Below, one piece after another: positions 4,783-27,828 of a DNA stretch of 45,256 bases. The first letter of the stretch is position 1, and the number at the start of each line of letters is the position of its first letter. A program made the position numbers and the translations under genes. The notes under the pieces were generated by a model. The model was not told the origin of the DNA. It was given only the letters and a program-made list of their open reading frames with translations, and ran no database searches. Location of the stretch: sequence record NC_073072.1; one strand, 5' to 3'. Origin of the DNA: Escherichia phage bob.

Positions 4783-5268
4783 ATGCAGAAGAGTGAGCAA
4801 AAAGATAGCTGGCGCACGCCGCCAGCTTTATTCAAACCGCTGCGCCGTAAGTTCCGATTCCGTTACGATATGGCGGCAAGCGACGCCAACCATCTGCTAC
4901 CGCGTTACTTCACGGCAGAGCACAGCGCGCTTGATGTGGACTGGTCAGAGTTGAAAGGGTGGAAGTGGTGCAATCCGCCGTATTCCGATCCGCTGCCGTG
5001 GGTCGAGTGTGCAGCGCACGGACGCCGGACTGTCATGCTACTGAATCAGGACACGTCGACGAAGTGGGCGAAGCTGGCCCGGAAGACTGCAAACCTGATA
5101 ATTCTTCTGGACTGGCGGATTAGATTTATACACGCCGTCACCGGCGAAGTCGGGCCTAGCAATAACAAGTGCCAGCAATTGATAATCTTTGACGAAGCGC
5201 CACCCATCGGCAGCGCACAAATTGAAATAATGAGCGAAGGAGAACTCCTTGAATATCTTAATCGTTGA
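4783..5268 (+). CDS. phage-type DNA N6-adenine methyltransferase (Dam family)
   Basis: SWRTPPALF...RYDMAASDANHLLPRYFT...WKWCNPPYSDPLPWV: NPPY catalytic motif and the conserved WxTP N-terminus of the phage Dam family. Confidence 0.85.
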   Translation: MQKSEQKDSWRTPPALFKPLRRKFRFRYDMAASDANHLLPRYFTAEHSALDVDWSELKGWKWCNPPYSDPLPWVECAAHGRRTVMLLNQDTSTKWAKLARKTANLIILLDWRIRFIHAVTGEVGPSNNKCQQLIIFDEAPPIGSAQIEIMSEGELLEYLNR

Positions 5269-7141: not shown

Positions 7142-7175
7142 AAAGGGGCCGCATGGCCCCTTCTATTTATTTCTT
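7142..7175. terminator. bidirectional terminator between convergent genes
   Basis: AAAAA-GGGGCC-gcat-GGCCCC-TTCTATTTATTT. Confidence 0.6.
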
Positions 7176-9332
7176 CAACGCCGCGATCTCGGCCTTCAAA
7201 TCCTCCACCTGCTTATTGAGATATTGAACACACCCCATCAAGTCCATTACGATCGGGTTAACGTCGATGGATGGGCGGTCCGTCATCTTCTCCCCGATCT
7301 TGTTGCCGTCTTCGTCGAGAATATCCTCGATCGGGAACTCGTGGTGCTTAACGTACTGCGGCGCAATTAACTCCGCTTCTTCGGCGATAATACCGAAGCG
7401 CTGGCGGGCCTGCTCATCATCCTTATACACGAAGTTAACAAGGCGCTGGCTGTTAATGCGGTCCATAGCTTCGCTTGCGTCCGCATCGGCTATATCTTTC
7501 TTATACTCGCGGCCGGATGTGCCTTGCAGCGCGATAGTCCCCGATGCGGTAGTCGGGAAGTTAAGCATAATTTCGCCGGTACGGTTCCCATCCTTACGTC
7601 GCATAAACAGGCGAAAATATCGAGTGCCGCTCTTTTCTAGTGCCGGTTCGAAGAACGTCCTACCGCCTACGACGTCGTTCGGCACGGTTTCGCCTACGGT
7701 GTAGTACGGTTCGAATGCAAATTGCAGGTAAGACCCGCGGCTTACTGCCAGGCTACCAACGACATCTGACCCTGAACTGTTCACCGTAAACTTGCCCGGC
7801 AAGGTCATCTCGCCTTTGGTGTTAAAGTCGATGCCTGAACTCTGCGCCGTCTCCAGGTTAGTGATCGCCAGGCGGGCGTAAGTCTCACCGTCGATATTCG
7901 CACGGACGCGCAGCTTTGCTTCCGAGTGTAAAGAAGTGCCAACACGATATTCAGACACAATGCTTCCGCCGTCTGCCGTAGTGCCCGCTGGCGGTTTAGT
8001 GGCGTCGCCGTTGATTACCGACCACGATGTGTTAGCGGCAACAAATCCGCCTGACGCTCGAATAACCCACACGCCCATGAAGTTATTCGGGCGCAACTCC
8101 GATACGGTCCGCCCGTAGATCGCGTTTACCTTCGAGGCGTCCATGTTAATGATGCCGTATGATTCCGCGCCGTTACTAACAGTTAGCCCGCCTGGCGATC
8201 GATATTGCGAAGCCGCACCGCCAGCCCCCCGGAACGCGCCACTTGCACCGTTGATAATACTTGCTGACCCGCCGCCGTGTAATTCGATGCGGCCTGTGAT
8301 GTTAGGTGCTCCTGATTCGTAGATATACCCATCGTTGCCACTTTGCCCGCCGTCACCCCGGCAGAACAAGCCGAATATTGACCCAGGCTGAACGCCATTA
8401 CGGTCCGGCACTCGGAAGGTAGTTGTGCCGTCACCCGTAGAATACTTTCCGCGCTGATTTGGGTTTGCCAGCCAGGTCTCGTCACTAATTGGCGACAGCA
8501 TTTGCGCATACGCCCAAAGCTCAGGCCAATCCGCTCGGTTTAACAATTGACCATCGGACACCACTTCGTAAGGTTGAATATACGCGCGGCTGTCCCGTAA
8601 ATGGAAATCACCTACGCCATAGTTCATGACGCCGTTCATTGTAGGGCCGACAGTGCCGGTGTTGATCAGATTCTGCACCCAGCGCTTTGTCGTGGCGTCG
8701 TAGTCACCAACAGGGTCGCCGGCCAGTGGTGTTGCCCCGTCCGGGCGAACGTTAAGCCAGGCTTGCGGTTTGTCGGTGAGTCCCGCCAGGTTGCCTGATT
8801 TTGTTAGCAAGTTATCCGCGTTAACGCTTTGCGCCCACTCCTCGGCCTGATCGCGGAATCCCTGCGCGGCGGATTTCGATGCTTCGGCTTGCGCTGCGAG
8901 GTCGCGCATCTCAACGGGGTCTACGTTCTTAAGCAATTCCGACAGGTATCCCCATGACATTCCCTGCATGACTTGCCCGTTAGGTAACGTCACTGTGATT
9001 TCTTCAGCGTCGCCGAAGATTGCGCGCCAGTTGTTTTCATCTGCGATCATCAAGCGCAACGCTTTCTGCGCCTGTACTGTTACGCCCATCGTTGCCAGCG
9101 ACATGGTATCGCGCTTAACGCCATCCCACGCAAGGCCGGTTGCCGTTGGGCCGTCGAACGGCAACACCAGCGTAAGCGCCGTGTTACTTTCGATTGATGC
9201 GATCGCCACTGTGTAAGGCACTTGTCCTACCACCAGCGTTAAGAAGTCGCCAGCTTTAAACGCGGTAAACGTTGTGCCGACTCCTACTACCGCCGTGCTA
9301 TTGTTCGTTACGGATAGCGTACCCGCTGCCAT
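7167..9332 (-). CDS. tail fibre/tailspike with C-terminal intramolecular chaperone (peptidase S74-like) domain
   Basis: 721 aa; Gly-rich central region; C-terminus ...GTSGREYKKDIADADASEAMDRINSQRLVNFVYKDDEQARQRFGIIAEEAELIAPQYV... fits the self-cleaving chaperone domain pattern; GAGGA RBS. Confidence 0.8.
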   Translation of the reverse strand: MAAGTLSVTNNSTAVVGVGTTFTAFKAGDFLTLVVGQVPYTVAIASIESNTALTLVLPFDGPTATGLAWDGVKRDTMSLATMGVTVQAQKALRLMIADENNWRAIFGDAEEITVTLPNGQVMQGMSWGYLSELLKNVDPVEMRDLAAQAEASKSAAQGFRDQAEEWAQSVNADNLLTKSGNLAGLTDKPQAWLNVRPDGATPLAGDPVGDYDATTKRWVQNLINTGTVGPTMNGVMNYGVGDFHLRDSRAYIQPYEVVSDGQLLNRADWPELWAYAQMLSPISDETWLANPNQRGKYSTGDGTTTFRVPDRNGVQPGSIFGLFCRGDGGQSGNDGYIYESGAPNITGRIELHGGGSASIINGASGAFRGAGGAASQYRSPGGLTVSNGAESYGIINMDASKVNAIYGRTVSELRPNNFMGVWVIRASGGFVAANTSWSVINGDATKPPAGTTADGGSIVSEYRVGTSLHSEAKLRVRANIDGETYARLAITNLETAQSSGIDFNTKGEMTLPGKFTVNSSGSDVVGSLAVSRGSYLQFAFEPYYTVGETVPNDVVGGRTFFEPALEKSGTRYFRLFMRRKDGNRTGEIMLNFPTTASGTIALQGTSGREYKKDIADADASEAMDRINSQRLVNFVYKDDEQARQRFGIIAEEAELIAPQYVKHHEFPIEDILDEDGNKIGEKMTDRPSIDVNPIVMDLMGCVQYLNKQVEDLKAEIAALKK

Positions 9333-9411
9333 AGCTAAATCCTCGTAATTGGTTGCAATCCTGGCTGAGCGGTGTAATACTAAAACTCAACCAAATATAG
9401 GGGATGATACC

Positions 9412-9630
9412 ATGAAAACTTTAATTATGATTTGTGCGGTTCTTTTGTCCGGTTGTGCCGACATGCCGTCTAAAATCTGCGACGCAACATACATGAATAG
9501 TGGTATGGAGTATTCCGTCCAGGTGTTTGGGGTCGCCGACTTTAGCGGGCATAAAATGCTAAGGGCGGGTTATCCGTTCAACTTCCAGTATGTGTCGGTC
9601 GACCACTTCAAAAGCACCACCTGCGAATAA
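9412..9630 (+). CDS. small outer-membrane-type lipoprotein, candidate receptor-blocking superinfection-exclusion protein (Cor/Llp-like by context)
   Basis: MKTLIMICAVLLSGC: signal peptide with lipobox LSG|C; 72 aa; divergent from tail fibre gene; GGGGA RBS. Confidence 0.65.
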   Translation: MKTLIMICAVLLSGCADMPSKICDATYMNSGMEYSVQVFGVADFSGHKMLRAGYPFNFQYVSVDHFKSTTCE

Positions 9631-9650
9631 GCCCCTTTCGGGGCGTTTTA
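9631..9650. terminator. bidirectional terminator
   Basis: GCCCC-tttc-GGGGC then GTTTTA, between convergent genes. Confidence 0.5.
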
Positions 9651-10319
9651 TATCCCATCCACGTTAATTGCGGTCAGCGCAACGCCTGTGTTTTGATACC
9701 CTGCGATGCTCCCTGACCCAGCCTGCGTAGCGACCGCGTTAATACGAGTGCCGCTTCCGTTGTCGTAAGCCCCGGCCCCTGCCGAGATCTGGATAATCTG
9801 CGGCTGCCCTTGTACAAAGATCTGGATCAGAGTGGCGCCCATTAACATAGGTGATACCGCGTACTTACCCGGCAGCGTCTGGTCTATGTTTATCCCGCCG
9901 TTATTGCCGAAGCTGCCAACTGTGACTAAATCGGTGAGTACCTTGCTCTCGTTGGTGAGTATGCACGTCCCGCTGGCGTCCCAAATCGCGAAGCCCCATT
10001 TTGGCAGCGGTTGCGGGAATCGCGCGAATACGTACGCCGTGACGGTAAAATGCGGGTTATTCTTACCCTGAATGCTTCCGCTAAATATAATCCGGTTACC
10101 TGATCGTGACGCCGCCAGGACGCAACGGTTATTCGACCGCATAAACACCATCGCCGGATAGTTCGCGGGGATATCCACTGCGCCACTCGCGGTTTTATAA
10201 TACGCCCCTGCGTCCACTGAGTTTGCCGACACCTTAGCATAGAGAACGAATGGCGTTGAGTTTGGCGTGACGAATGGGTTGCCGTTGTTGTTGTCAATTA
10301 ATGCTCCGAAGTTTGCCAT
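9648..10319 (-). CDS. tail protein (223 aa), unknown role
   Basis: Natural ATG; sits between J-like gene and tail fibre; Gly/Asn-rich. Confidence 0.5.
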   Translation of the reverse strand: MANFGALIDNNNGNPFVTPNSTPFVLYAKVSANSVDAGAYYKTASGAVDIPANYPAMVFMRSNNRCVLAASRSGNRIIFSGSIQGKNNPHFTVTAYVFARFPQPLPKWGFAIWDASGTCILTNESKVLTDLVTVGSFGNNGGINIDQTLPGKYAVSPMLMGATLIQIFVQGQPQIIQISAGAGAYDNGSGTRINAVATQAGSGSIAGYQNTGVALTAINVDGI

Positions 10320-10321
10320 TT

Positions 10322-10624
10322 TTACGCTTTCTCCACAAAAACTACTACTTCACATTCTGATGCTGGGTAGTTTCCAATACCGACGCTGTTTGCGGCAGAT
10401 ACTGTTATCGTGTTCCCGCTGGCACGGATCGCCCGACCGACCGTAGTGCCGCCTACGTCCAGCGTAACCGCAAAACCTACTTTCATACCTGACGGAATAT
10501 CGAACGTCCACGCCCCCGATGTTTGACCTTGTGCCAGTTTAATAATTCCGACAACCGAAACGGGCTTTATCCCGTAGTTGTTTGGGCGCCCTTGCGCGTC
10601 CCATGTTGCGACACCGAAAGCCAT
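10322..10624 (-). CDS. small tail-associated protein (100 aa)
   Basis: ATG 10624 with GTGAGGT RBS; the longer track ORF start would overlap the J stop. Confidence 0.45.
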   Translation of the reverse strand: MAFGVATWDAQGRPNNYGIKPVSVVGIIKLAQGQTSGAWTFDIPSGMKVGFAVTLDVGGTTVGRAIRASGNTITVSAANSVGIGNYPASECEVVVFVEKA

Positions 10625-10661: not shown

Positions 10662-13600
10662 TTACCAATAACCTGTGATTTCACCAATTTGCACGCGGAG
10701 CACGCCGTTTCCGTCCCTAACGCTGATTTGCGTGTTTGTCTGTTTCATCCCGCCACCGTTACCGGTTCCCAGGTTGATAAACGTTCCGTCTTTCCCTAAG
10801 CGCCAACCACGCGAGTAGCCGTCATAGTTATTCGATTGCAACGTGTCCGTAATCTGCGCGAAGTTGATAGTCGCGTCTTTGATGCGTGCCGTGTCAATAT
10901 ACACCGCGCCGCCGTCTACGATAAACGCGGACGAAAGCGACCCGTTAGATGGGTGCATGATGTAGAACTGGTCCGCTTTGAATGCGATGCGGGATTTAAC
11001 CGCGCCGCCTTCCGCCACGACGGAAAGCTGCATACCGGCATCATAGTAAGTCCCGTTATACGTCACGCCCGCCTTAAGGCTGTACGTGGCGTTGCCACCA
11101 GCATGGTTAAACGTGGACGTCATCTTCTGCTCGATAGCTGCGGACTGCTGACCGAACTGTGCCGCGACCTGGGTCTTGTACTCCGCCAGCGCGCCCGCTA
11201 CGTCTGCCGTTGCCGTTTGTACCTGCTGGATGGCAGCTTCCTGTTCCCCGAACTTAGCGGCAACAGTTTGCTGGTACTGGGCGAAGGCTTGCTCGTGCGT
11301 GCTTTGCGCTGTCTGCAACGTGTGGATCGCCGCTTCCGCATCGTCAAGTCGCGTGCCGATCAACGTCTCCAGTTGAGCGACCGCCTTGTGGGCGTCCGCC
11401 GCCACGTTATACGCCACCTTGATTTCCGCATAAATGCCCTTGTACTCGGCGCGGGCGTTGAACAATTGCTGCGCGTCGGTGAGCATCGCCTCGTAAATAC
11501 CCTGCGGGATCGTGTCGATTGCTTCCTGGAAGCGTTTACCATCCTCGGAAGTCAAGAACTCGTCATCAAGCCCCTTCATGTACTCGTCAACTTTGTCACT
11601 CACCTGCCCTTCAAACGGGGCCGACCAGTCCGACAGGTTGCCGATTTTATCCGCTACACGGGCGCGCAACTGCTGGTAAATTCCGAACTCCAGCGATGTT
11701 TGCGCATACTCCGCCCCCGGATATGGGACGTTGGTAAGGAATTTCCATTCAGTCTCACCGGTCTTGCGCACTTCAAGCTCGGTGTACGAGATATCAGTAG
11801 CGGCGTTGTTGTGGTTCCACTTCCACAAGATCTGGTGAAGGCCCGAAATAGCGTTGGTGATGATTGGTGCGTTAAGCCCACCGAGACGACCTTCCACCGG
11901 CGTGATGGCGGACGACACCCACGGAGATGAAATCTCGCCCATACCGATCGCGCGGACGCGTGCCTGGTAGTTACCGGAGAACACGTTAGGGATGTGCGCC
12001 CCATTCGACGCCGTGCGTGGGATATTCACCCAGTCGTTACCCCACTGGATTTCCATATTCTGAAGGCTGGTACGCCTCCACTGGATTTCATACACCACGG
12101 CATCCTTCACCGGAGGGAATACAATATCCACGTTGGTGATTAGCTGCCCTTGCGATGAAATCTGCGACGGGGTGATGGTCACGGATTCCGGCCCCTTCAT
12201 TACCCCGTCAGGCACTTGCGTAAAGATACCCGGATCAAGGCGCGCGCCATTATCAACGGCATCATACTTGCTATCGTTGTACTCAATCCCGCGCACCGAG
12301 AAAGTGCTCGTAGAGTCGTCATACTCCAGGTCGGTGATGCGGAATTTCTGCAACTGGATATCGTCGCCATCAACGCAAAACGGCTGGTCAGGAATAGGGT
12401 TGGCGTCCAGTGCGGTTTTTAGCGTTACCTTGTTGCCGTTGACGCTGGCGATCTCGCGAGTCTCCACATTACCGCTATCGGTGCGTACCAGGAACTTATC
12501 GCCAGGGCGGAACGTGATTTCGCTGTCCGTGTTCAGCACAGTACGCGTCCCCGGATCAGACAACAGACGTCCGCCGCGTGTCTCGAAGCCGCCAGAAATA
12601 TTAGTATCCGCGATCGCGACTACGCTACCAGGAATAAAGAATAACCCTTCCATGCCAACTTTAAAGCTAACTTGCTGGTCAAGCTGGTTGGAAATTAGCG
12701 CCCAGTGCCCGCGGCGTTGCGCTTCAGATTCACGCGTACAGCCGATCGCCGTAATATCGAGGCGGTTAATCTTATGGCGGCGCACCAGTTCGACGCGCTG
12801 GCCCGTTGCAATGGCGTCCTCGTAGTGGTTCTTCGGGTTGCCGTATGCTACCGCGAATGTTGAGTACCGAGTTTTCTGGCTTCCCGAGGCATAGTCGAAT
12901 CGCCCATCAATGACCGAGGCGTTGGTGATAGTGTGCGACACCGCGGCGACCGGCTGGTCACTGACGATATTTAACATCTGATTGCCCCACCAGGTCATTC
13001 CGGCGAAGATGGCAGCCAAATCCTTAAGCACGGTCCAGGCGTCGGTCTGCGACTGAATGTACATATCATTCTTAAATCGGATCTCCCGCCCGCCGTTGCC
13101 GTCACTGACCAGCTGATCGCAGCGCTGCGCAATCTGGTAAAGCGCGTATCGGTTTAGCATTTGCGGTTTGATACGACGACCGAGGCCAAAGCGCTCAGTA
13201 ATACAAATATCGTACCAGTGCCACGCAGGGTTATCCGTCCATGCGCGTTTAAACGTGCCGTCCCAGTCCCCGGAATAAGTATGATTAATCGGGTCGTAGT
13301 TGTTCGGTATTAGAACTTTGCGGCCTTTGCACTTGATGGACACGCGCGGGATGTTCTGGAACGCTTTGGCGTCGAACTCCACAAACAACAGCGCGGTTAG
13401 CGGGTAACGCAGGCGGGCGTCGATAATCTCAGTGATGGACTGCACCCGGATATCATTAACCACTTTCGCCGATGTGGAGTCTGCCGTTATGCGGTGCACC
13501 TCCACGCGCCAGCCGGTGTTAACGTTCGGAGGTAATTCGATGCGGTGGTCGCGCTCATACAGCGACATTGTTTTACCAACGGCGGCGAATCTGAACTCAC

Positions 13601-14081
13601 GCGGGTCCGCGTTATCCGTATACACAACGATCTTATAGTCGATGCGCCCGCCCACCAGGTCGCCATTATCTTCGTTAGTGTACAGGGCCGGAATGCCGAT
13701 TCGAATGCGCACGGCGTCAAGACTGGTGTCATTAATCTGGCGCACCCACGGCGTGCCGTTTTCCAGTTTTACGCCGACAGATTGTTCACTTTCCACCGCT
13801 GAAAATCCGTGGATCACATCCTGGTGCTGTGTGCCCGGACGGAACTCCACGCGAGCGCCCGGGAAGTTTTCCGACAGGTCGGCGTTCTGGATCGGTGTTC
13901 CGTCCAGGTAGACGCGCTGCCGTAATTCGCTGGCGCTCGTAATACTTTCGAACTCCCCTTCGCCCAGTGCGAGCAAGATGCGGATTTTAGCCAGCGAATG
14001 CAGGCTGTCTGGCGTCTCCTGTGGGGTGTGCTGTTTGCCGCCGCCGCCTTTATGGCCCGTGACGTCGTAGATAATCGTCAT
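10662..14081 (-). CDS. tail tip / host specificity protein, lambda J-like
   Basis: 1139 aa; N-terminus GHKGGGGKQHTPQETPDSL and central ...PNNYDPINHTYSGDWDGTFKRAWTDNPAWHWYDI... recall lambda J (...SNYNPQTRQYSGIWDGTFKPAYSNNMAWCLWDM...). Confidence 0.9.
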   Translation of the reverse strand: MTIIYDVTGHKGGGGKQHTPQETPDSLHSLAKIRILLALGEGEFESITSASELRQRVYLDGTPIQNADLSENFPGARVEFRPGTQHQDVIHGFSAVESEQSVGVKLENGTPWVRQINDTSLDAVRIRIGIPALYTNEDNGDLVGGRIDYKIVVYTDNADPREFRFAAVGKTMSLYERDHRIELPPNVNTGWRVEVHRITADSTSAKVVNDIRVQSITEIIDARLRYPLTALLFVEFDAKAFQNIPRVSIKCKGRKVLIPNNYDPINHTYSGDWDGTFKRAWTDNPAWHWYDICITERFGLGRRIKPQMLNRYALYQIAQRCDQLVSDGNGGREIRFKNDMYIQSQTDAWTVLKDLAAIFAGMTWWGNQMLNIVSDQPVAAVSHTITNASVIDGRFDYASGSQKTRYSTFAVAYGNPKNHYEDAIATGQRVELVRRHKINRLDITAIGCTRESEAQRRGHWALISNQLDQQVSFKVGMEGLFFIPGSVVAIADTNISGGFETRGGRLLSDPGTRTVLNTDSEITFRPGDKFLVRTDSGNVETREIASVNGNKVTLKTALDANPIPDQPFCVDGDDIQLQKFRITDLEYDDSTSTFSVRGIEYNDSKYDAVDNGARLDPGIFTQVPDGVMKGPESVTITPSQISSQGQLITNVDIVFPPVKDAVVYEIQWRRTSLQNMEIQWGNDWVNIPRTASNGAHIPNVFSGNYQARVRAIGMGEISSPWVSSAITPVEGRLGGLNAPIITNAISGLHQILWKWNHNNAATDISYTELEVRKTGETEWKFLTNVPYPGAEYAQTSLEFGIYQQLRARVADKIGNLSDWSAPFEGQVSDKVDEYMKGLDDEFLTSEDGKRFQEAIDTIPQGIYEAMLTDAQQLFNARAEYKGIYAEIKVAYNVAADAHKAVAQLETLIGTRLDDAEAAIHTLQTAQSTHEQAFAQYQQTVAAKFGEQEAAIQQVQTATADVAGALAEYKTQVAAQFGQQSAAIEQKMTSTFNHAGGNATYSLKAGVTYNGTYYDAGMQLSVVAEGGAVKSRIAFKADQFYIMHPSNGSLSSAFIVDGGAVYIDTARIKDATINFAQITDTLQSNNYDGYSRGWRLGKDGTFINLGTGNGGGMKQTNTQISVRDGNGVLRVQIGEITGYW

Positions 14082-26283: not shown

Positions 26284-26300
26284 GGGGCCATTACGGCCCC
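26284..26300. terminator. bidirectional terminator hairpin
   Basis: GGGGCC-attac-GGCCCC flanked by A/T runs; overlaps 3' end of o-spanin ORF. Confidence 0.5.
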
Positions 26301-26521
26301 CGAATTATTTGCTGCAACTCCAGGACCTGCGCCCTCAGCTTCGCCCCGCATTCCATATTTTTCACGTCAATCATCAAATCTTCGTCGGGGTCCGCGGACG
26401 GGTTATCGAACTTGCACGGCGGTCGCAGTGCCGACTCCGTTAGCGGCATCAACGGCGCTTTGCTTGATCCGCACGCGCTCAGCATCAAAACTGCAATCAG
26501 GACGGTTAGGACGCGTAACAT
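26291..26521 (-). CDS. o-spanin (Rz1-like outer-membrane lipoprotein)
   Basis: MLRVLTVLIAVLMLSAC: lipobox LSA|C; Pro-rich mature part; start embedded out of frame in the i-spanin gene. Confidence 0.6.
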   Translation of the reverse strand: MLRVLTVLIAVLMLSACGSSKAPLMPLTESALRPPCKFDNPSADPDEDLMIDVKNMECGAKLRAQVLELQQIIRGP

Positions 26522-26732
26522 ATTTCACAACCTCTTTCGTGATAGTCCGGTATTCCACATCGCGGGCCTGTTCTGCCTGCACAGCCCCCTCGACAACCTT
26601 AGTTTGCTGCCGTTGGGCTTTCGCTTGCGCTTCTTGCGATGCTCTCGCCACAACGGCAGCGCGGTAGGAATCACCCTGCCAGAATCCTACCACCAGACCG
26701 ATAACCAGTCCGATCGCTGCATATTTAATCAC
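26403..26732 (-). CDS. i-spanin (Rz-like)
   Basis: GTG 26732 with GGGGG RBS; N-terminal TMD IKYAAIGLVIGLVVGFW then Gln/Ala-rich helical region. Confidence 0.55.
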   Translation of the reverse strand: MIKYAAIGLVIGLVVGFWQGDSYRAAVVARASQEAQAKAQRQQTKVVEGAVQAEQARDVEYRTITKEVVKYVTRPNRPDCSFDAERVRIKQSAVDAANGVGTATAVQVR

Positions 26733-27828
26733 GCCATAACCCCCGGTTTTTAAGCTGTGCAATAGTCATCAGTTCGCCAGAATCGGTAAACATCTTCGGC
26801 ACTTTCACGCCGCGCATAATCTGGTCGGCGCGTTGCACTCCATATAACTCCTCCAGGATGTGGCGCGGCTGGCGCTGCACCCAGGAGAAGAAATCAGTCT
26901 GCGCGTCGACCTGCTCACTCAGCAACCGGCCCGCGTCAGCCTTCAATGCCGGACGCTTACCACTGGGCCAATCTTCCATGCCCTTAACTTTCCACGTCTC
27001 CGTAGACCGGCAACAATAATGCAACTTGCCCGGACCAGCGCCATATTGTGACCCAGCCACCACTTTCCCGCCGCGCTTTCCTTTGGTGTTGGGAGTGACG
27101 TCAACAGGATAAAACAGGCGATCGCGTAGCTGGCACATTGGGGAAGTATGAGTGTCCAATGTAGCCAACCATTGGCGACCTTCGAGAATATCGTCATTAG
27201 CTTTCACCATTAATTCGCGGGCAGTCGCCGCATAGTGGTTAACTGCGGACTTAACAACGCTTGAGATTGCCTGCGCACTACGACCGCCGAGAGCGCGCCT
27301 CACGTCCGCGATAATTTCCATAGTCGGCTTGCCCTGGATGAAGCCAGCGCGCACCTGATTACCGATCTGCGTCCTGGTCCACTCAGAGAGTGAGTCAGGC
27401 CATTGCATCATCGTATTACCCTGGAACGGGTTTTTCATAGCCGTCGCTGCGATCTGTGCACCGGTAACAACGCCAACTACTTCAACAGCGGGTACGGCGA
27501 CAGCGGGCTGGATCGCTGCCGTTAGTGTGTCAGCGAGATAATCAGCCTCGGTGTCGGCGAACTCCTGAAGGCTTTCAGCCAGCGCCTTAAACTCGGTGCG
27601 CAGTTCTGTTTTAACGGTCTTGTCGAGTTGCGTTAACAGAGTGGTAAGTGCCTTGTTGTTCATGGACTTTTTGCCATCAAGTAACTCGGTCAGCTTACCC
27701 AGTAACGTGGGCCGGAACTTCTCCCACATAGCCAGCACCCGCCGCGCCTGGTCATTGCTCAGGCGCTGGGTGAAGATGTGACGACGGATCATGCGATCCG
27801 CCATATGTTGATTAATCGTTCTCGCCAT
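26725..27828 (-). CDS. head morphogenesis protein (Mu F / SPP1 gp7-like)
   Basis: 367 aa; ...WLATLDTHTSPMCQ... motif typical of the family; immediately downstream of portal. Confidence 0.75.
   Translation of the reverse strand: MARTINQHMADRMIRRHIFTQRLSNDQARRVLAMWEKFRPTLLGKLTELLDGKKSMNNKALTTLLTQLDKTVKTELRTEFKALAESLQEFADTEADYLADTLTAAIQPAVAVPAVEVVGVVTGAQIAATAMKNPFQGNTMMQWPDSLSEWTRTQIGNQVRAGFIQGKPTMEIIADVRRALGGRSAQAISSVVKSAVNHYAATARELMVKANDDILEGRQWLATLDTHTSPMCQLRDRLFYPVDVTPNTKGKRGGKVVAGSQYGAGPGKLHYCCRSTETWKVKGMEDWPSGKRPALKADAGRLLSEQVDAQTDFFSWVQRQPRHILEELYGVQRADQIMRGVKVPKMFTDSGELMTIAQLKNRGLWRD

What the first reader, a model, noticed from the sequence alone, without database searches (positions are those of the whole stretch)
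9412..9630. Small lipoprotein gene divergent from the tail fibre gene: candidate receptor-masking superinfection exclusion
The 72 aa product starts MKTLIMICAVLLSG|C, a textbook lipoprotein signal with lipobox, and is the only plus-strand gene inside the 17 kb minus-strand tail module, directly beside the tail fibre gene. In T1-like and T5 phages, small outer-membrane lipoproteins (Cor, Llp) encoded next to receptor-binding genes inactivate the phage receptor after infection. The same architecture here suggests this function and hints at the receptor class.
Basis: partly seen in the sequence, partly recalled or inferred. Interest (0 to 1): 0.55.

Follow-up and report, generated by a model that had tools for sequence, protein, structure and literature searches.

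The report
Cor receptor-blocking lipoprotein of a Dhillonvirus
The small gene is a real, well-conserved copy of the known phage "Cor" lipoprotein, which makes an infected E. coli cell refuse further phages that use the FhuA iron-transporter; it is ordinary and already annotated as such in near-identical phages.

Summary
ORF 9412-9630 (+) encodes a 72-aa precursor with a canonical lipoprotein signal (LLSG|C15), a ribosome-binding site and an intrinsic terminator. It is under strong purifying selection (dN/dS about 0.06).

The protein matches NCBIfam "phage exclusion lipoprotein Cor" (62.9 bits, cutoff 31) and PHROG 1119 (E=5e-28). It is 98.6% identical to the annotated super-infection exclusion protein of phage mckay. 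It keeps the Cor hallmarks: lipobox, Cys23/Cys71 and the AGYPF motif.

The window is a whole Dhillonvirus genome, probably phage Bob. The gene sits in the classic cor cassette, as in T1: gpJ, a 100-aa protein, a 223-aa receptor-binding candidate, then cor. Dhillonviruses with this cassette (BASEL Bas15-17) are experimentally FhuA-dependent. A 2026 paper already reports the cor cassette in FhuA-using Dhillonviruses.

The most likely mechanism is an Llp-like block of FhuA from the periplasmic side. That step is inferred, not shown.

One extra point may be unreported. Dhillonviruses with FhuA-, LptD- and BtuB-type cassettes share the same promoter and signal peptide (MKTLIMICAVLLSGC). Homology ends two codons at most after the lipid-anchor cysteine.

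The parts
9353..9381 (+). Putative sigma-70 promoter of cor: TTGCAA, 17-nt spacer, AATACT preceded by TGt (extended -10)
   Evidence: Read by eye. It scores 8/12 plus the TG motif, below the 9/12 threshold of the scan, which therefore did not list it. The -35 and TGnAATACT elements are conserved in mckay, PaulFeyerabend, Oekolampad and PTXU06. This is an inference, not a demonstrated promoter.
9399..9404 (+). Ribosome-binding site AGGGGA, 7 nt before the ATG
   Evidence: Sequence. Conserved in relatives (AGGGGA or AGGAGA).
9412..9630 (+). cor gene: 72-aa Cor superinfection-exclusion lipoprotein precursor (stop codon included)
   Evidence: ORF confirmed. PHROG 1119 E=4.7e-28. NCBIfam NF047972 62.9 bits against a cutoff of 31. 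98.6% identical to the mckay 'super-infection exclusion protein'. dN/dS 0.06.
9412..9456 (+). Lipoprotein signal peptide MKTLIMICAVLLSG plus the lipid-anchor Cys15 (codon 9454-9456). This segment is shared with Dhillonviruses that carry other receptor cassettes.
   Evidence: Lipobox rule met. The lipobox L-x-G-C is invariant in the Cor alignment. The peptide is identical in the LptD-type and BtuB-type lipoproteins.
9457..9627 (+). Mature Cor domain (57 aa after the Cys): Ala at +2, conserved Cys23 (9478-9480) and Cys71 (9622-9624), AGYPF motif at residues 52-56
   Evidence: Alignment with the T1, phi80 and HK022 Cor proteins. The AF2 model is all-beta, with pLDDT about 75 in this part. Best PDB fold match is T5 Llp, 8a60_B.
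9631..9654 (+). Intrinsic terminator GCCCCTTTCGGGGC followed by GTTTTATATC, lying between the convergent cor and RBP genes
   Evidence: Found by the terminator scan. The stem is conserved in mckay and PaulFeyerabend.
9648..10319 (-). 223-aa candidate receptor-binding protein of the FhuA-type cassette (databases call it 'membrane associated protein')
   Evidence: PHROG 425 E=7e-67. 100% identical to mckay, 95.5% to the FhuA-dependent PaulFeyerabend, 56% to the FhuA-dependent JakobBernoulli and 46% to HK022-like phages. Positional equivalent of the annotated 'membrane associated protein' T1 ST31 and of phi80 gp23.
10322..10624 (-). 100-aa accessory protein of the cassette (databases call it 'outer membrane protein')
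   Evidence: PHROG 557 E=1.4e-32. Annotated at 303 nt in mckay and PaulFeyerabend. Positional equivalent of the annotated 'outer membrane protein' T1 ST32 and of phi80 gp22.
10662..14081 (-). gpJ-like central tail-tip protein. Only its last 55 or so residues (about 10665-10830) belong to the exchangeable receptor cassette.
   Evidence: Against Oekolampad (LptD type), identity is 92-100% up to residue 1050, 78% for residues 1051-1099, and 20-40% after that. Against PaulFeyerabend (FhuA type) it stays at or above 90% to the end.
7167..9332 (-). Lateral tail fibre gene, divergent from cor. It is the conserved left flank of the cassette, not part of the exclusion function.
   Evidence: PHROG tail-fibre families. 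Peptidase_S74 chaperone domain at residues 607-662. Annotated as 'lateral tail fiber protein' in BASEL phages.

Best explanation
The gene is the Dhillonvirus orthologue of cor, the superinfection-exclusion lipoprotein of T1, phi80, N15 and HK022.

Proposed mechanism, step by step:
1. After injection, host RNA polymerase transcribes cor from its own small promoter. This transcription runs opposite to the tail genes.
2. The precursor is exported, lipid-modified at Cys15 and cleaved by signal peptidase II.
3. [quoted passage not shown]
4. There the 57-residue beta-rich domain, probably held by a Cys23-Cys71 disulfide, binds the periplasmic face of the TonB-dependent ferrichrome transporter FhuA.
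5. As shown for T5 Llp, this locks FhuA in a state that phage receptor-binding proteins cannot use.

The consequences would be twofold. Further FhuA-dependent phages, this phage included, could not inject into the infected cell. Progeny would not be wasted on FhuA in cell debris.

Status of each step:
- Shown here: gene reality, Cor family membership, cassette synteny, and perfect co-variation of the mature domain with the receptor cassette.
- Taken from the literature: relatives with this cassette depend on FhuA.
- Inferred: expression timing, localisation, direct FhuA binding and the allosteric mode of action.
For: Family membership:
- NCBIfam equivalog 'phage exclusion lipoprotein Cor', 62.9 bits against a cutoff of 31.
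- PHROG 1119 full length, E=4.7e-28.
- 51%, 40% and 44% identity to T1, phi80 and HK022 Cor, with invariant lipobox, Cys23, Cys71 and AGYPF.
- tblastn finds 239 phage records, many annotated as Cor or superinfection exclusion protein.

Context:
- Same J / phrog_557 / phrog_425 / cor layout as T1, where cor is also convergent, and phi80.

Receptor:
- BASEL S5 table lists PaulFeyerabend, GeorgBuechner, KarlBarth and JakobBernoulli as FhuA-dependent, and Oekolampad and TheodorHerzl as LptD-dependent.
- PaulFeyerabend matches the window locus at 88.7% nt identity, with 95.5% RBP and 91% Cor identity.
- In 14 Dhillonvirus loci the Cor mature domain goes with the FhuA-type RBP 8/8, and the LptD-type lipoprotein with the LptD-type RBP 6/6.
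- PMC13164509 reports cor together with both partner genes in 10 FhuA-using BASEL phages, a group that includes Dhillonviruses.

Mechanism by analogy:
[quoted passage not shown] The authors expect Cor to act likewise (PMC9586334).
- Cor and Llp are predicted to share a fold (bioRxiv 10.64898/2026.03.26.714494). An AF3 model places T1-like Cor on the periplasmic side of FhuA with ipTM 0.84 (PMC13164509).
- Here, the best of 350,542 PDB chains for the AF2 model is Llp, 8a60_B (prob 1.0, TM 0.53, rmsd 3.0 A, 26% identity).
- A Cor profile hits Llp at E=1.5e-4.

Gene reality:
- RBS and terminator; dN/dS 0.06.
Against: - No experiment on any Dhillonvirus Cor was found in the papers I read. This phage's own receptor is inferred from relatives.
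- The AF2 model is only moderately confident (mean pLDDT 66, 7-sequence alignment).
- The Foldseek E-value for Llp is 0.078, not significant by itself.
- The profile hit to Llp covers mainly the signal peptide and the first cysteine.
- The molecular mechanism of Cor is explicitly described as not yet elucidated.
- The promoter is below the scan's threshold.
Confidence: 0.8

Rival explanations
1. Cor excludes FhuA-dependent phages indirectly. It would work through, or together with, other outer-membrane proteins such as porins or OmpA, rather than through an Llp-like one-to-one complex with FhuA.
For: The reference list of PMC13164509 cites Arguijo-Hernandez et al. [quoted passage not shown] The 2026 Llp preprint states that the Cor mechanism has not been elucidated. 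The sequence relationship of Cor to Llp is weak outside the signal peptide.
Against: The best structural match of the model is Llp in its FhuA complex. The published AF3 model puts Cor on the periplasmic face of FhuA with ipTM 0.84. The mature domain co-varies strictly with the receptor cassette, as expected for a receptor-specific binder.
Confidence: 0.12
2. The protein blocks a receptor other than FhuA, for example another TonB-dependent transporter. On this reading the FhuA assignment from relatives does not hold for this phage.
For: The receptor of this particular phage was not tested. A distant Cor-like lipoprotein sits in the different cassette of PTXU06, which PMC10373560 calls BtuB-dependent. 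PMC13164509 notes Cor-like proteins in BtuB-using phages.
Against: The 223-aa RBP is 95.5% identical to that of the FhuA-dependent PaulFeyerabend, and Cor is 91% identical. No LptD- or BtuB-type cassette genes are present in the window.
Confidence: 0.04
3. It is a lysis lipoprotein (an o-spanin or similar), or another structural or assembly lipoprotein, and not an exclusion factor.
For: o-Spanins are also small outer-membrane lipoproteins of about 60-80 aa with a lipobox.
Against: The phage has a separate o-spanin candidate at 26291..26521 (-) that overlaps a longer ORF (26403..26762). This matches the annotated i-spanin/o-spanin pair of Oekolampad. No i-spanin partner lies beside cor. HMM matches are to Cor, not to spanins.
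Confidence: 0.01
4. It is a chance ORF or a mis-called start, and no protein is made.
For: Short ORFs are abundant: there are 49 ORFs of at least 30 aa in 4.5 kb. Annotators disagree on the start, with 72 aa in some records and 93-94 aa in others.
Against: dN/dS is 0.06 while synonymous sites are near saturation. There is a full-length HMM match, an RBS and a terminator, and conservation across several phage families.
Confidence: 0.01

Closest known systems
Cor lipoproteins of phages T1, phi80, N15, HK022 and mEp167 (NCBIfam NF047972, PHROG 1119)
   Same: Same size, lipobox, Cys pair and AGYPF motif, with 40-51% identity. Same cassette directly after gpJ and two small genes. As in T1, cor is convergent with those genes. 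Relatives carrying the cassette use FhuA.
   Different: The host phage is a virulent Dhillonvirus rather than a Drexlerviridae phage or a temperate lambdoid. The signal peptide belongs to the Dhillonvirus backbone and is shared with lipoproteins directed at other receptors. In phi80 and HK022, cor is on the same strand as J.
Annotated Cor / 'super-infection exclusion protein' genes of other Dhillonviruses (mckay, SECphi18, YD-2008.s, SSL-2009a, Envy and others)
   Same: 82-99% amino-acid identity, with identical position and orientation.
   Different: Essentially nothing differs. The window differs from mckay Cor by one residue (R51 versus E51).
Llp, the lytic conversion lipoprotein of phage T5 (PDB 8A60, in complex with FhuA)
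   Same: A small periplasm-facing outer-membrane lipoprotein with one disulfide, encoded beside the receptor-binding gene, that inactivates FhuA. It is the best PDB fold match to the model, and the literature predicts a common fold.
   Different: Only about 20-26% identity. The profile match is weak and mostly N-terminal. The partner RBP in T5 is pb5, which PMC12685063 names as the T5 RBP; it was not compared with the 223-aa protein here. No direct binding data exist for Cor.
Rtp45 / Oekolampad bas18_0026, the LptD-directed exclusion lipoproteins (PDB 9RPS)
   Same: Same genomic slot, same orientation and, in Oekolampad, an identical signal peptide. Same logic of a periplasmic lipoprotein disabling the phage's own receptor.
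   Different: The mature domain is unrelated: BLASTP aligns only residues 1-16. It belongs to PHROG 4281, not 1119. The target is LptDE, and the mechanism is steric rather than TonB-transporter allostery.

Membership tests
Cor superinfection-exclusion lipoprotein | Sequence scores above the curated threshold of the family model | tested here: met
   NCBIfam NF047972 (equivalog) 62.9 bits against a cutoff of 31, E=2e-17, covering residues 2-72. PHROG 1119 E=4.7e-28, residues 1-72. There is no match to any Pfam model.
Cor superinfection-exclusion lipoprotein | Precursor of about 70-80 aa with an N-terminal lipoprotein signal peptide and a lipobox cysteine | tested here: met
   MKTLIMICAVLLSG|C15 fits the lipobox rule. 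L-x-G-C is invariant across Cor of T1, phi80, HK022 and the Dhillonviruses. SignalP and LipoP were not available.
Cor superinfection-exclusion lipoprotein | Conserved cysteine pair and core motif of the mature domain | tested here: met
   Cys23, Cys71 and A52-G-Y-P-F56 are invariant in the 8-sequence alignment. PMC9586334 notes that the intramolecular disulfide is shared by Llp and Cor.
Cor superinfection-exclusion lipoprotein | Located at the end of the gpJ / small protein / ~225-aa protein cassette | tested here: met
   Window: J 10662-14081, 100-aa gene 10322-10624 (PHROG 557), 223-aa gene 9648-10319 (PHROG 425), cor 9412-9630. T1 and phi80 have the same order.
Cor superinfection-exclusion lipoprotein | The carrying phage uses FhuA as its terminal receptor | tested here: inconclusive
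   This phage's receptor cannot be tested here. Relatives with the same cassette (Bas15, Bas16, Bas17, Bas07) are FhuA-dependent in BASEL table S5. RBP identity to Bas15 is 95.5%.
Cor superinfection-exclusion lipoprotein | Expression excludes FhuA-dependent phages and inactivates FhuA transport functions | not testable with these tools
   This needs plating, adsorption and ferrichrome, albomycin or colicin M assays. It is reported for lambdoid Cor proteins (Uc-Mass 2004, as cited).
Cor superinfection-exclusion lipoprotein | Outer-membrane localisation facing the periplasm | not testable with these tools
   Only the sorting rule can be read: residue +2 is Ala, not Asp. From general knowledge of Lol sorting in E. 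coli, this predicts release to the outer membrane.
T5 Llp family | Llp fold (small beta domain with one disulfide) | tested here: inconclusive
   The AF2 model has pLDDT 66. 8a60_B ranks first in the PDB, but with E=0.078, TM 0.47/0.53 and rmsd 3.0 A over 49 columns. In BFVD, rank 2 is an uncharacterized 75-aa protein of Escherichia phage DT571/2 (E=3.5e-3, 26% id) and rank 11 a 'receptor-blocking protein' of Yersinia phage phiR2-01 (E=0.054).
T5 Llp family | Detectable sequence homology to Llp | tested here: inconclusive
   The single sequence gives E=0.14. The Cor profile gives E=1.5e-4, but only over positions 1-42, which are dominated by the signal peptide.
LptD-directed exclusion lipoproteins (Rtp45 / SE-Oeko, PHROG 4281) | Homologous mature domain | tested here: not met
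   BLASTP aligns only the 16 N-terminal residues. tblastn with the mature domains finds no cross-matches. For the window protein, PHROG 4281 matches only residues 2-19, at E=0.19.
o-Spanin | Lipoprotein gene embedded in or next to an i-spanin gene | tested here: not met
   The o-spanin-like lipoprotein is elsewhere, at 26291-26521 (-), overlapping ORF 26403-26762. This corresponds to the annotated spanin pair of Oekolampad. Nothing of the kind is adjacent to cor.

The most novel reading that the evidence does not exclude
In Dhillonviruses the cor promoter, 5' UTR and lipoprotein signal peptide up to the lipid-anchor cysteine belong to the conserved genome backbone. They act as a fixed export 'socket' and as one homology arm for swapping whole receptor cassettes. 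The other arm lies about 55 codons before the end of gpJ. A cassette consists of the gpJ tip, the receptor-binding gene(s) and the mature domain of the matching exclusion lipoprotein.

Three cassettes (FhuA, LptD, BtuB) with unrelated or barely related mature domains are fused in frame to the same 15-residue leader. A single recombination event would therefore re-target adsorption and self-exclusion together.

The unusual nucleotide-level conservation of the leader might also reflect signals for the lateral-fibre gene on the opposite strand.

I did not find this junction described in the four papers I checked, but I cannot exclude that it is known.
Probability: 0.45. Interest if true: 0.4.

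Novelty: already known. Interest (0 to 1): 0.15.

Why it matters
As a finding, it mainly confirms annotation. The gene tells us that this phage almost certainly uses FhuA, and that infected cells should become refractory to T1-, T5- and phi80-type phages. That is useful when designing phage cocktails or explaining cross-resistance.

The modest added value is the clean cassette architecture. A receptor switch in these phages carries its own matching exclusion domain, spliced at or within two codons after the lipid-anchor cysteine. This gives a natural design rule for engineering receptor specificity and self-exclusion together. It also gives a simple sequence handle, the conserved leader, for fishing out new receptor-directed exclusion lipoproteins from metagenomes.

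Tried and rejected
- Pfam has no Cor model. The only hit was a spurious transporter match at E=0.16.
- A single-sequence search of PDB sequences gave nothing significant; Llp came out at E=0.14.
- The word-indexed protein search returned only six close homologues, 73-93% identical. The AF2 alignment was therefore shallow and the model only moderately confident. I ran no further search on it, because the family assignment was already decisive.
- The record MN850628.1 (phage Bob) has the same length as the window (45,256 bp, listed in PMC10373560). It is not in the collection, so the window's identity is probable, not verified.
- The promoter scan found no site in the 79-nt intergenic region at its 9/12 threshold. 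The promoter I propose is an 8/12 match plus a TG motif, read by eye.
- The o-spanin idea is rejected because a separate spanin pair exists.
- Homology to the LptD-type exclusion lipoprotein is rejected beyond the signal peptide.
- My first dN/dS script mis-sorted two Cor genes that have E or M before AGYPF. The pooled estimate therefore rests on six genes. The classification was corrected.
- Ten of the comparison loci were found by an exact match to the first 26 nt of the gene, so their identity in that stretch is by construction. Oekolampad, PaulFeyerabend, mckay and PTXU06 were obtained independently and show the same junction.

Full report
**1. Observation**

The window holds an ORF at 9412-9630 on the plus strand. 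It encodes MKTLIMICAVLLSGCADMPSKICDATYMNSGMEYSVQVFGVADFSGHKMLRAGYPFNFQYVSVDHFKSTTCE, 72 aa.

The longest mechanical ORF starts at TTG 9349 (93 aa). ATG 9412 is the better start for three reasons:
- AGGGGA precedes it at a 7-nt spacing.
- A lipoprotein signal must be N-terminal.
- All homologues begin with MKTL.

The N-terminus fits the classical lipoprotein rule: Lys in the n-region, an uncharged h-region, L-S-G-C with Cys15. Of 1584 start/ORF candidates of at least 40 aa in the window, ten fit this rule. Three begin with ATG, and only two of those correspond to annotated genes in relatives: this one and the o-spanin at 26291-26521.

A 5-bp all-GC hairpin plus a T-run follows the stop codon. 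Among Dhillonvirus copies the mature region has pS 0.54 but pN 0.057, giving dN/dS of about 0.06. It is therefore a translated, constrained gene.

It is the only plus-strand gene in the minus-strand tail block.

**2. What the window is**

The region is 88-94% identical at the DNA level to many Dhillonvirus coliphages, with mckay the best match. The window length of 45,256 bp equals the genome length listed for Escherichia phage Bob, MN850628.1, in PMC10373560. That record is not in the searchable collection. The window is therefore a complete Dhillonvirus genome, probably Bob.

**3. What the gene is**

Family matches:
- NCBIfam NF047972 "phage exclusion lipoprotein Cor" (equivalog): 62.9 bits against a curated cutoff of 31.
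- PHROG 1119 "Cor superinfection exclusion protein": end-to-end match at E=4.7e-28.
- Pfam has no model for it.

tblastn finds the protein in 239 phage records:
- 82-99% identity in Dhillonviruses, many of them annotated "super-infection exclusion protein" or "Cor".
- About 50% in T1-like Drexlerviridae.
- 40-44% in phi80, HK022 and the mEp lambdoids.

An alignment with T1, phi80 and HK022 Cor shows these features as invariant: the lipobox, Cys23, Cys71 and the AGYPF motif.

**4. Context**

To the right of cor, on the minus strand, lie three genes:
- gpJ (10662-14081).
- A 100-aa gene (10322-10624, PHROG 557, "outer membrane protein").
- A 223-aa gene (9648-10319, PHROG 425, "membrane associated protein").

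This is the cor cassette of T1: J, ST32, ST31, then a convergent cor. It is also that of phi80: J, gp22, gp23, cor.

The BASEL study argued that the genes directly downstream of gpJ encode the true receptor-binding protein together with a cognate exclusion protein. It also argued that allelic variants of this locus predict the terminal receptor (PMC8594841).

Its table S5 lists the receptors as follows:
- FhuA: the Dhillonviruses PaulFeyerabend, GeorgBuechner and KarlBarth, and the Drexlerviridae phage JakobBernoulli.
- LptD: TheodorHerzl and Oekolampad.

The window's 223-aa protein is 95.5% identical to PaulFeyerabend's, 56% to JakobBernoulli's and 46% to those of HK022-like phages. A 2026 paper states explicitly that cor plus both partner genes occurs in ten BASEL phages, Drexlerviridae and Dhillonvirus, all using FhuA (PMC13164509).

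It carries a Peptidase_S74 chaperone domain. It is thought to bind surface glycans, not FhuA.

**5. Co-variation test**

If the lipoprotein masks the phage's own receptor, its mature domain should change when the receptor cassette changes. It does.
- Oekolampad (LptD) carries, in the same slot and orientation, a 73-aa lipoprotein. Its first 16 residues are identical to the window protein and the rest is unrelated.
- Across 14 Dhillonvirus loci, the Cor-type mature domain accompanies the FhuA-type RBP in 8 of 8 cases. The other mature domain accompanies the 321-aa LptD-type RBP in 6 of 6 cases.
- PTXU06, called BtuB-dependent in PMC10373560, has a third cassette. Its lipoprotein again starts MKTLIMICAVLLSGC and continues with a distant Cor-like domain.
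- The Oekolampad-type protein is the one treated as the LptD exclusion factor in PMC12685063. That paper solved the structure of its homologue Rtp45 bound to the periplasmic side of LptDE.

**6. Cassette boundaries**

Between cassette types, DNA identity is about 90-100% from the lateral-fibre 5' end, through the 79-nt intergenic region, to nucleotide 45-48 of the lipoprotein gene (the Cys15 or Ala16 codon). It then falls to random levels.

On the other side, gpJ is 92-100% identical between the window and Oekolampad up to residue 1050. It is 78% identical for residues 1051-1099, and then drops to 20-40%.

The exchangeable unit is therefore the J tip, the RBP gene(s) and the mature exclusion domain.

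One caveat applies. Ten loci were ascertained through an exact match to the first 26 nt of the gene. Four independently obtained genomes show the same junction.

**7. Mechanism**

Shown for relatives in the literature:
- Cor functionally inactivates FhuA and excludes FhuA-dependent phages (Uc-Mass 2004 and Hernandez-Sanchez 2008, as cited).
[quoted passage not shown] The authors expect Cor to act in the same way (PMC9586334).
- Cor and Llp are predicted to share a fold.
- An AF3 model of a T1-like Cor docks on the periplasmic face of FhuA.

Tested here:
- An AF2 model of the window protein is all-beta. Its mean pLDDT is 66, and about 75 in the mature part.
- Its best match among 350,542 PDB chains is Llp from the FhuA complex: 8a60_B, prob 1.0, TM 0.53, rmsd 3.0 A, 26% identity. 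The E-value is only 0.078.
- In the viral structure library, the best hits after a Dhillonvirus Cor are an uncharacterized 75-aa protein of Escherichia phage DT571/2 (26% id) and, at rank 11, a "receptor-blocking protein" of Yersinia phage phiR2-01.
- A Cor profile reaches Llp at E=1.5e-4, mostly through the N-terminal part.

Inferred:
- The +2 residue is Ala, which by the E. coli Lol sorting rule predicts outer-membrane localisation.
- Within Dhillonviruses the RBP occurs as two alleles only about 52% identical, while Cor stays 82-89% identical. This fits a protein that acts on the conserved periplasmic side of the receptor rather than competing at the RBP's surface epitope.
- Expression from its own sigma-70-like promoter (TTGCAA, 17-nt spacer, TGtAATACT; 9353-9381) is read by eye and was not detected by the scan.

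**8. Rivals**

- Indirect action through other outer-membrane proteins. A 2018 paper, seen only as a citation, points this way. It cannot be excluded.
- A different receptor. This is unlikely given the RBP identity to FhuA-dependent phages.
- A spanin. This is excluded by the separate spanin pair.
- A chance ORF. This is excluded by selection and homology.

**9. Comparison and novelty**

The gene is a member of the Cor family on every feature that could be tested. The functional features could not be tested here.

It works like T5 Llp, but membership of one family with Llp is only weakly supported by my data. It is not related, beyond the leader, to the LptD-directed lipoproteins.

The finding as written is already known. 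The gene is annotated as a Cor or superinfection-exclusion protein in near-identical genomes, and the association of the cassette with FhuA-using Dhillonviruses is published.

The one point I did not see in the papers I checked is that the promoter and signal peptide are a shared backbone element, and that the recombination junction lies at or within two codons after the lipid-anchor cysteine. This is a modest, descriptive addition.

**10. Verdict**

- Observation: confirmed.
- Interpretation: supported.
- Novelty: already known.
- Interest: low (0.15).
- Confidence that this is a Cor-family lipoprotein is very high.
- Confidence that it disables FhuA from the periplasmic side in an Llp-like manner is about 0.8 overall. 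The binding mode is the weakest step.

Noticed in passing
window 9333-9459; L002 21796-21923 (-); L017 27184-27311 (-): The intergenic region and the first 45-48 nt of the lipoprotein gene (signal peptide MKTLIMICAVLLSGC, plus Ala16 in the LptD type) are nearly identical in Dhillonviruses with FhuA-, LptD- and BtuB-type receptor cassettes. Homology stops one to two codons after the lipid-anchor cysteine. I did not find this in the BASEL or LptDE papers.
   Followed up: yes
window 10665-10830 (gpJ C-terminus): gpJ is 92-100% identical to that of the LptD-dependent Oekolampad up to residue 1050, and 78% for residues 1051-1099. After that, identity collapses to 20-40%, so the J tip travels with the RBP cassette. 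The J body is closer to Oekolampad than to the FhuA-type PaulFeyerabend in its first 200 residues, which suggests a recent cassette swap.
   Followed up: partly
window 9648-10319 versus L011 and L013: The 223-aa RBP candidate exists as two alleles only 52-54% identical within Dhillonvirus. The adjacent Cor stays 82-89% identical, so the RBP and the exclusion protein are not tightly co-evolving.
   Followed up: partly
window 9424-9451 (-) and 9333-9411: The lateral tail-fibre gene has an RBS (GAGGA, about 9341-9345 on the minus strand) but little room for a promoter in the 79-nt gap. The scan lists a minus-strand promoter-like site (CGGACA, 16-nt spacer, CATAAT) inside the signal-peptide coding region of cor. 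Tail-fibre transcripts must therefore start inside cor or run antisense through it. This might contribute to the nucleotide-level conservation of the leader. It is a consensus match only.
   Followed up: no
window 9631-9644; L003 about 4833-4846: The terminator hairpin between cor and the RBP gene has the same stem in PaulFeyerabend, but its loop is the reverse complement (GAAA instead of TTTC), as if the palindromic element had been inverted.
   Followed up: no
window 26291-26521 (-), overlapping ORF 26403-26762 (-): A second lipobox protein (MLRVLTVLIAVLMLSAC..., 76 aa) overlaps a longer ORF in another frame. It corresponds to the o-spanin/i-spanin pair annotated in Oekolampad. Oddly, that pair sits next to the head genes rather than beside the holin and endolysin.
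   Followed up: partly
window 7347-7514 (-), lateral tail fibre residues 607-662: A Peptidase_S74 intramolecular chaperone domain lies near the C-terminus of the lateral tail fibre (E=1.7e-9). This implies autoproteolytic maturation of the fibre.
   Followed up: no
phage database records MG065648 (A144), MG065687 (A136), MG065688 (A110b), MG065636 (A16a) and ON843697 (Motto): Some records are labelled Campylobacter or Pseudomonas phages yet carry coliphage-type cor cassettes. A144 is 92% identical at the DNA level to this window's locus. The host labels look doubtful, or the samples were contaminated.
   Followed up: no
window 9349-9630: The start-codon annotation is inconsistent among relatives. 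The UniProt/BFVD entry for phage CEC_Kaz_2018 is 94 aa, consistent with a start upstream of the ATG (cf. the 93-aa TTG 9349 ORF here), which would bury the signal peptide. Other records use the 72-aa ATG start.
   Followed up: no
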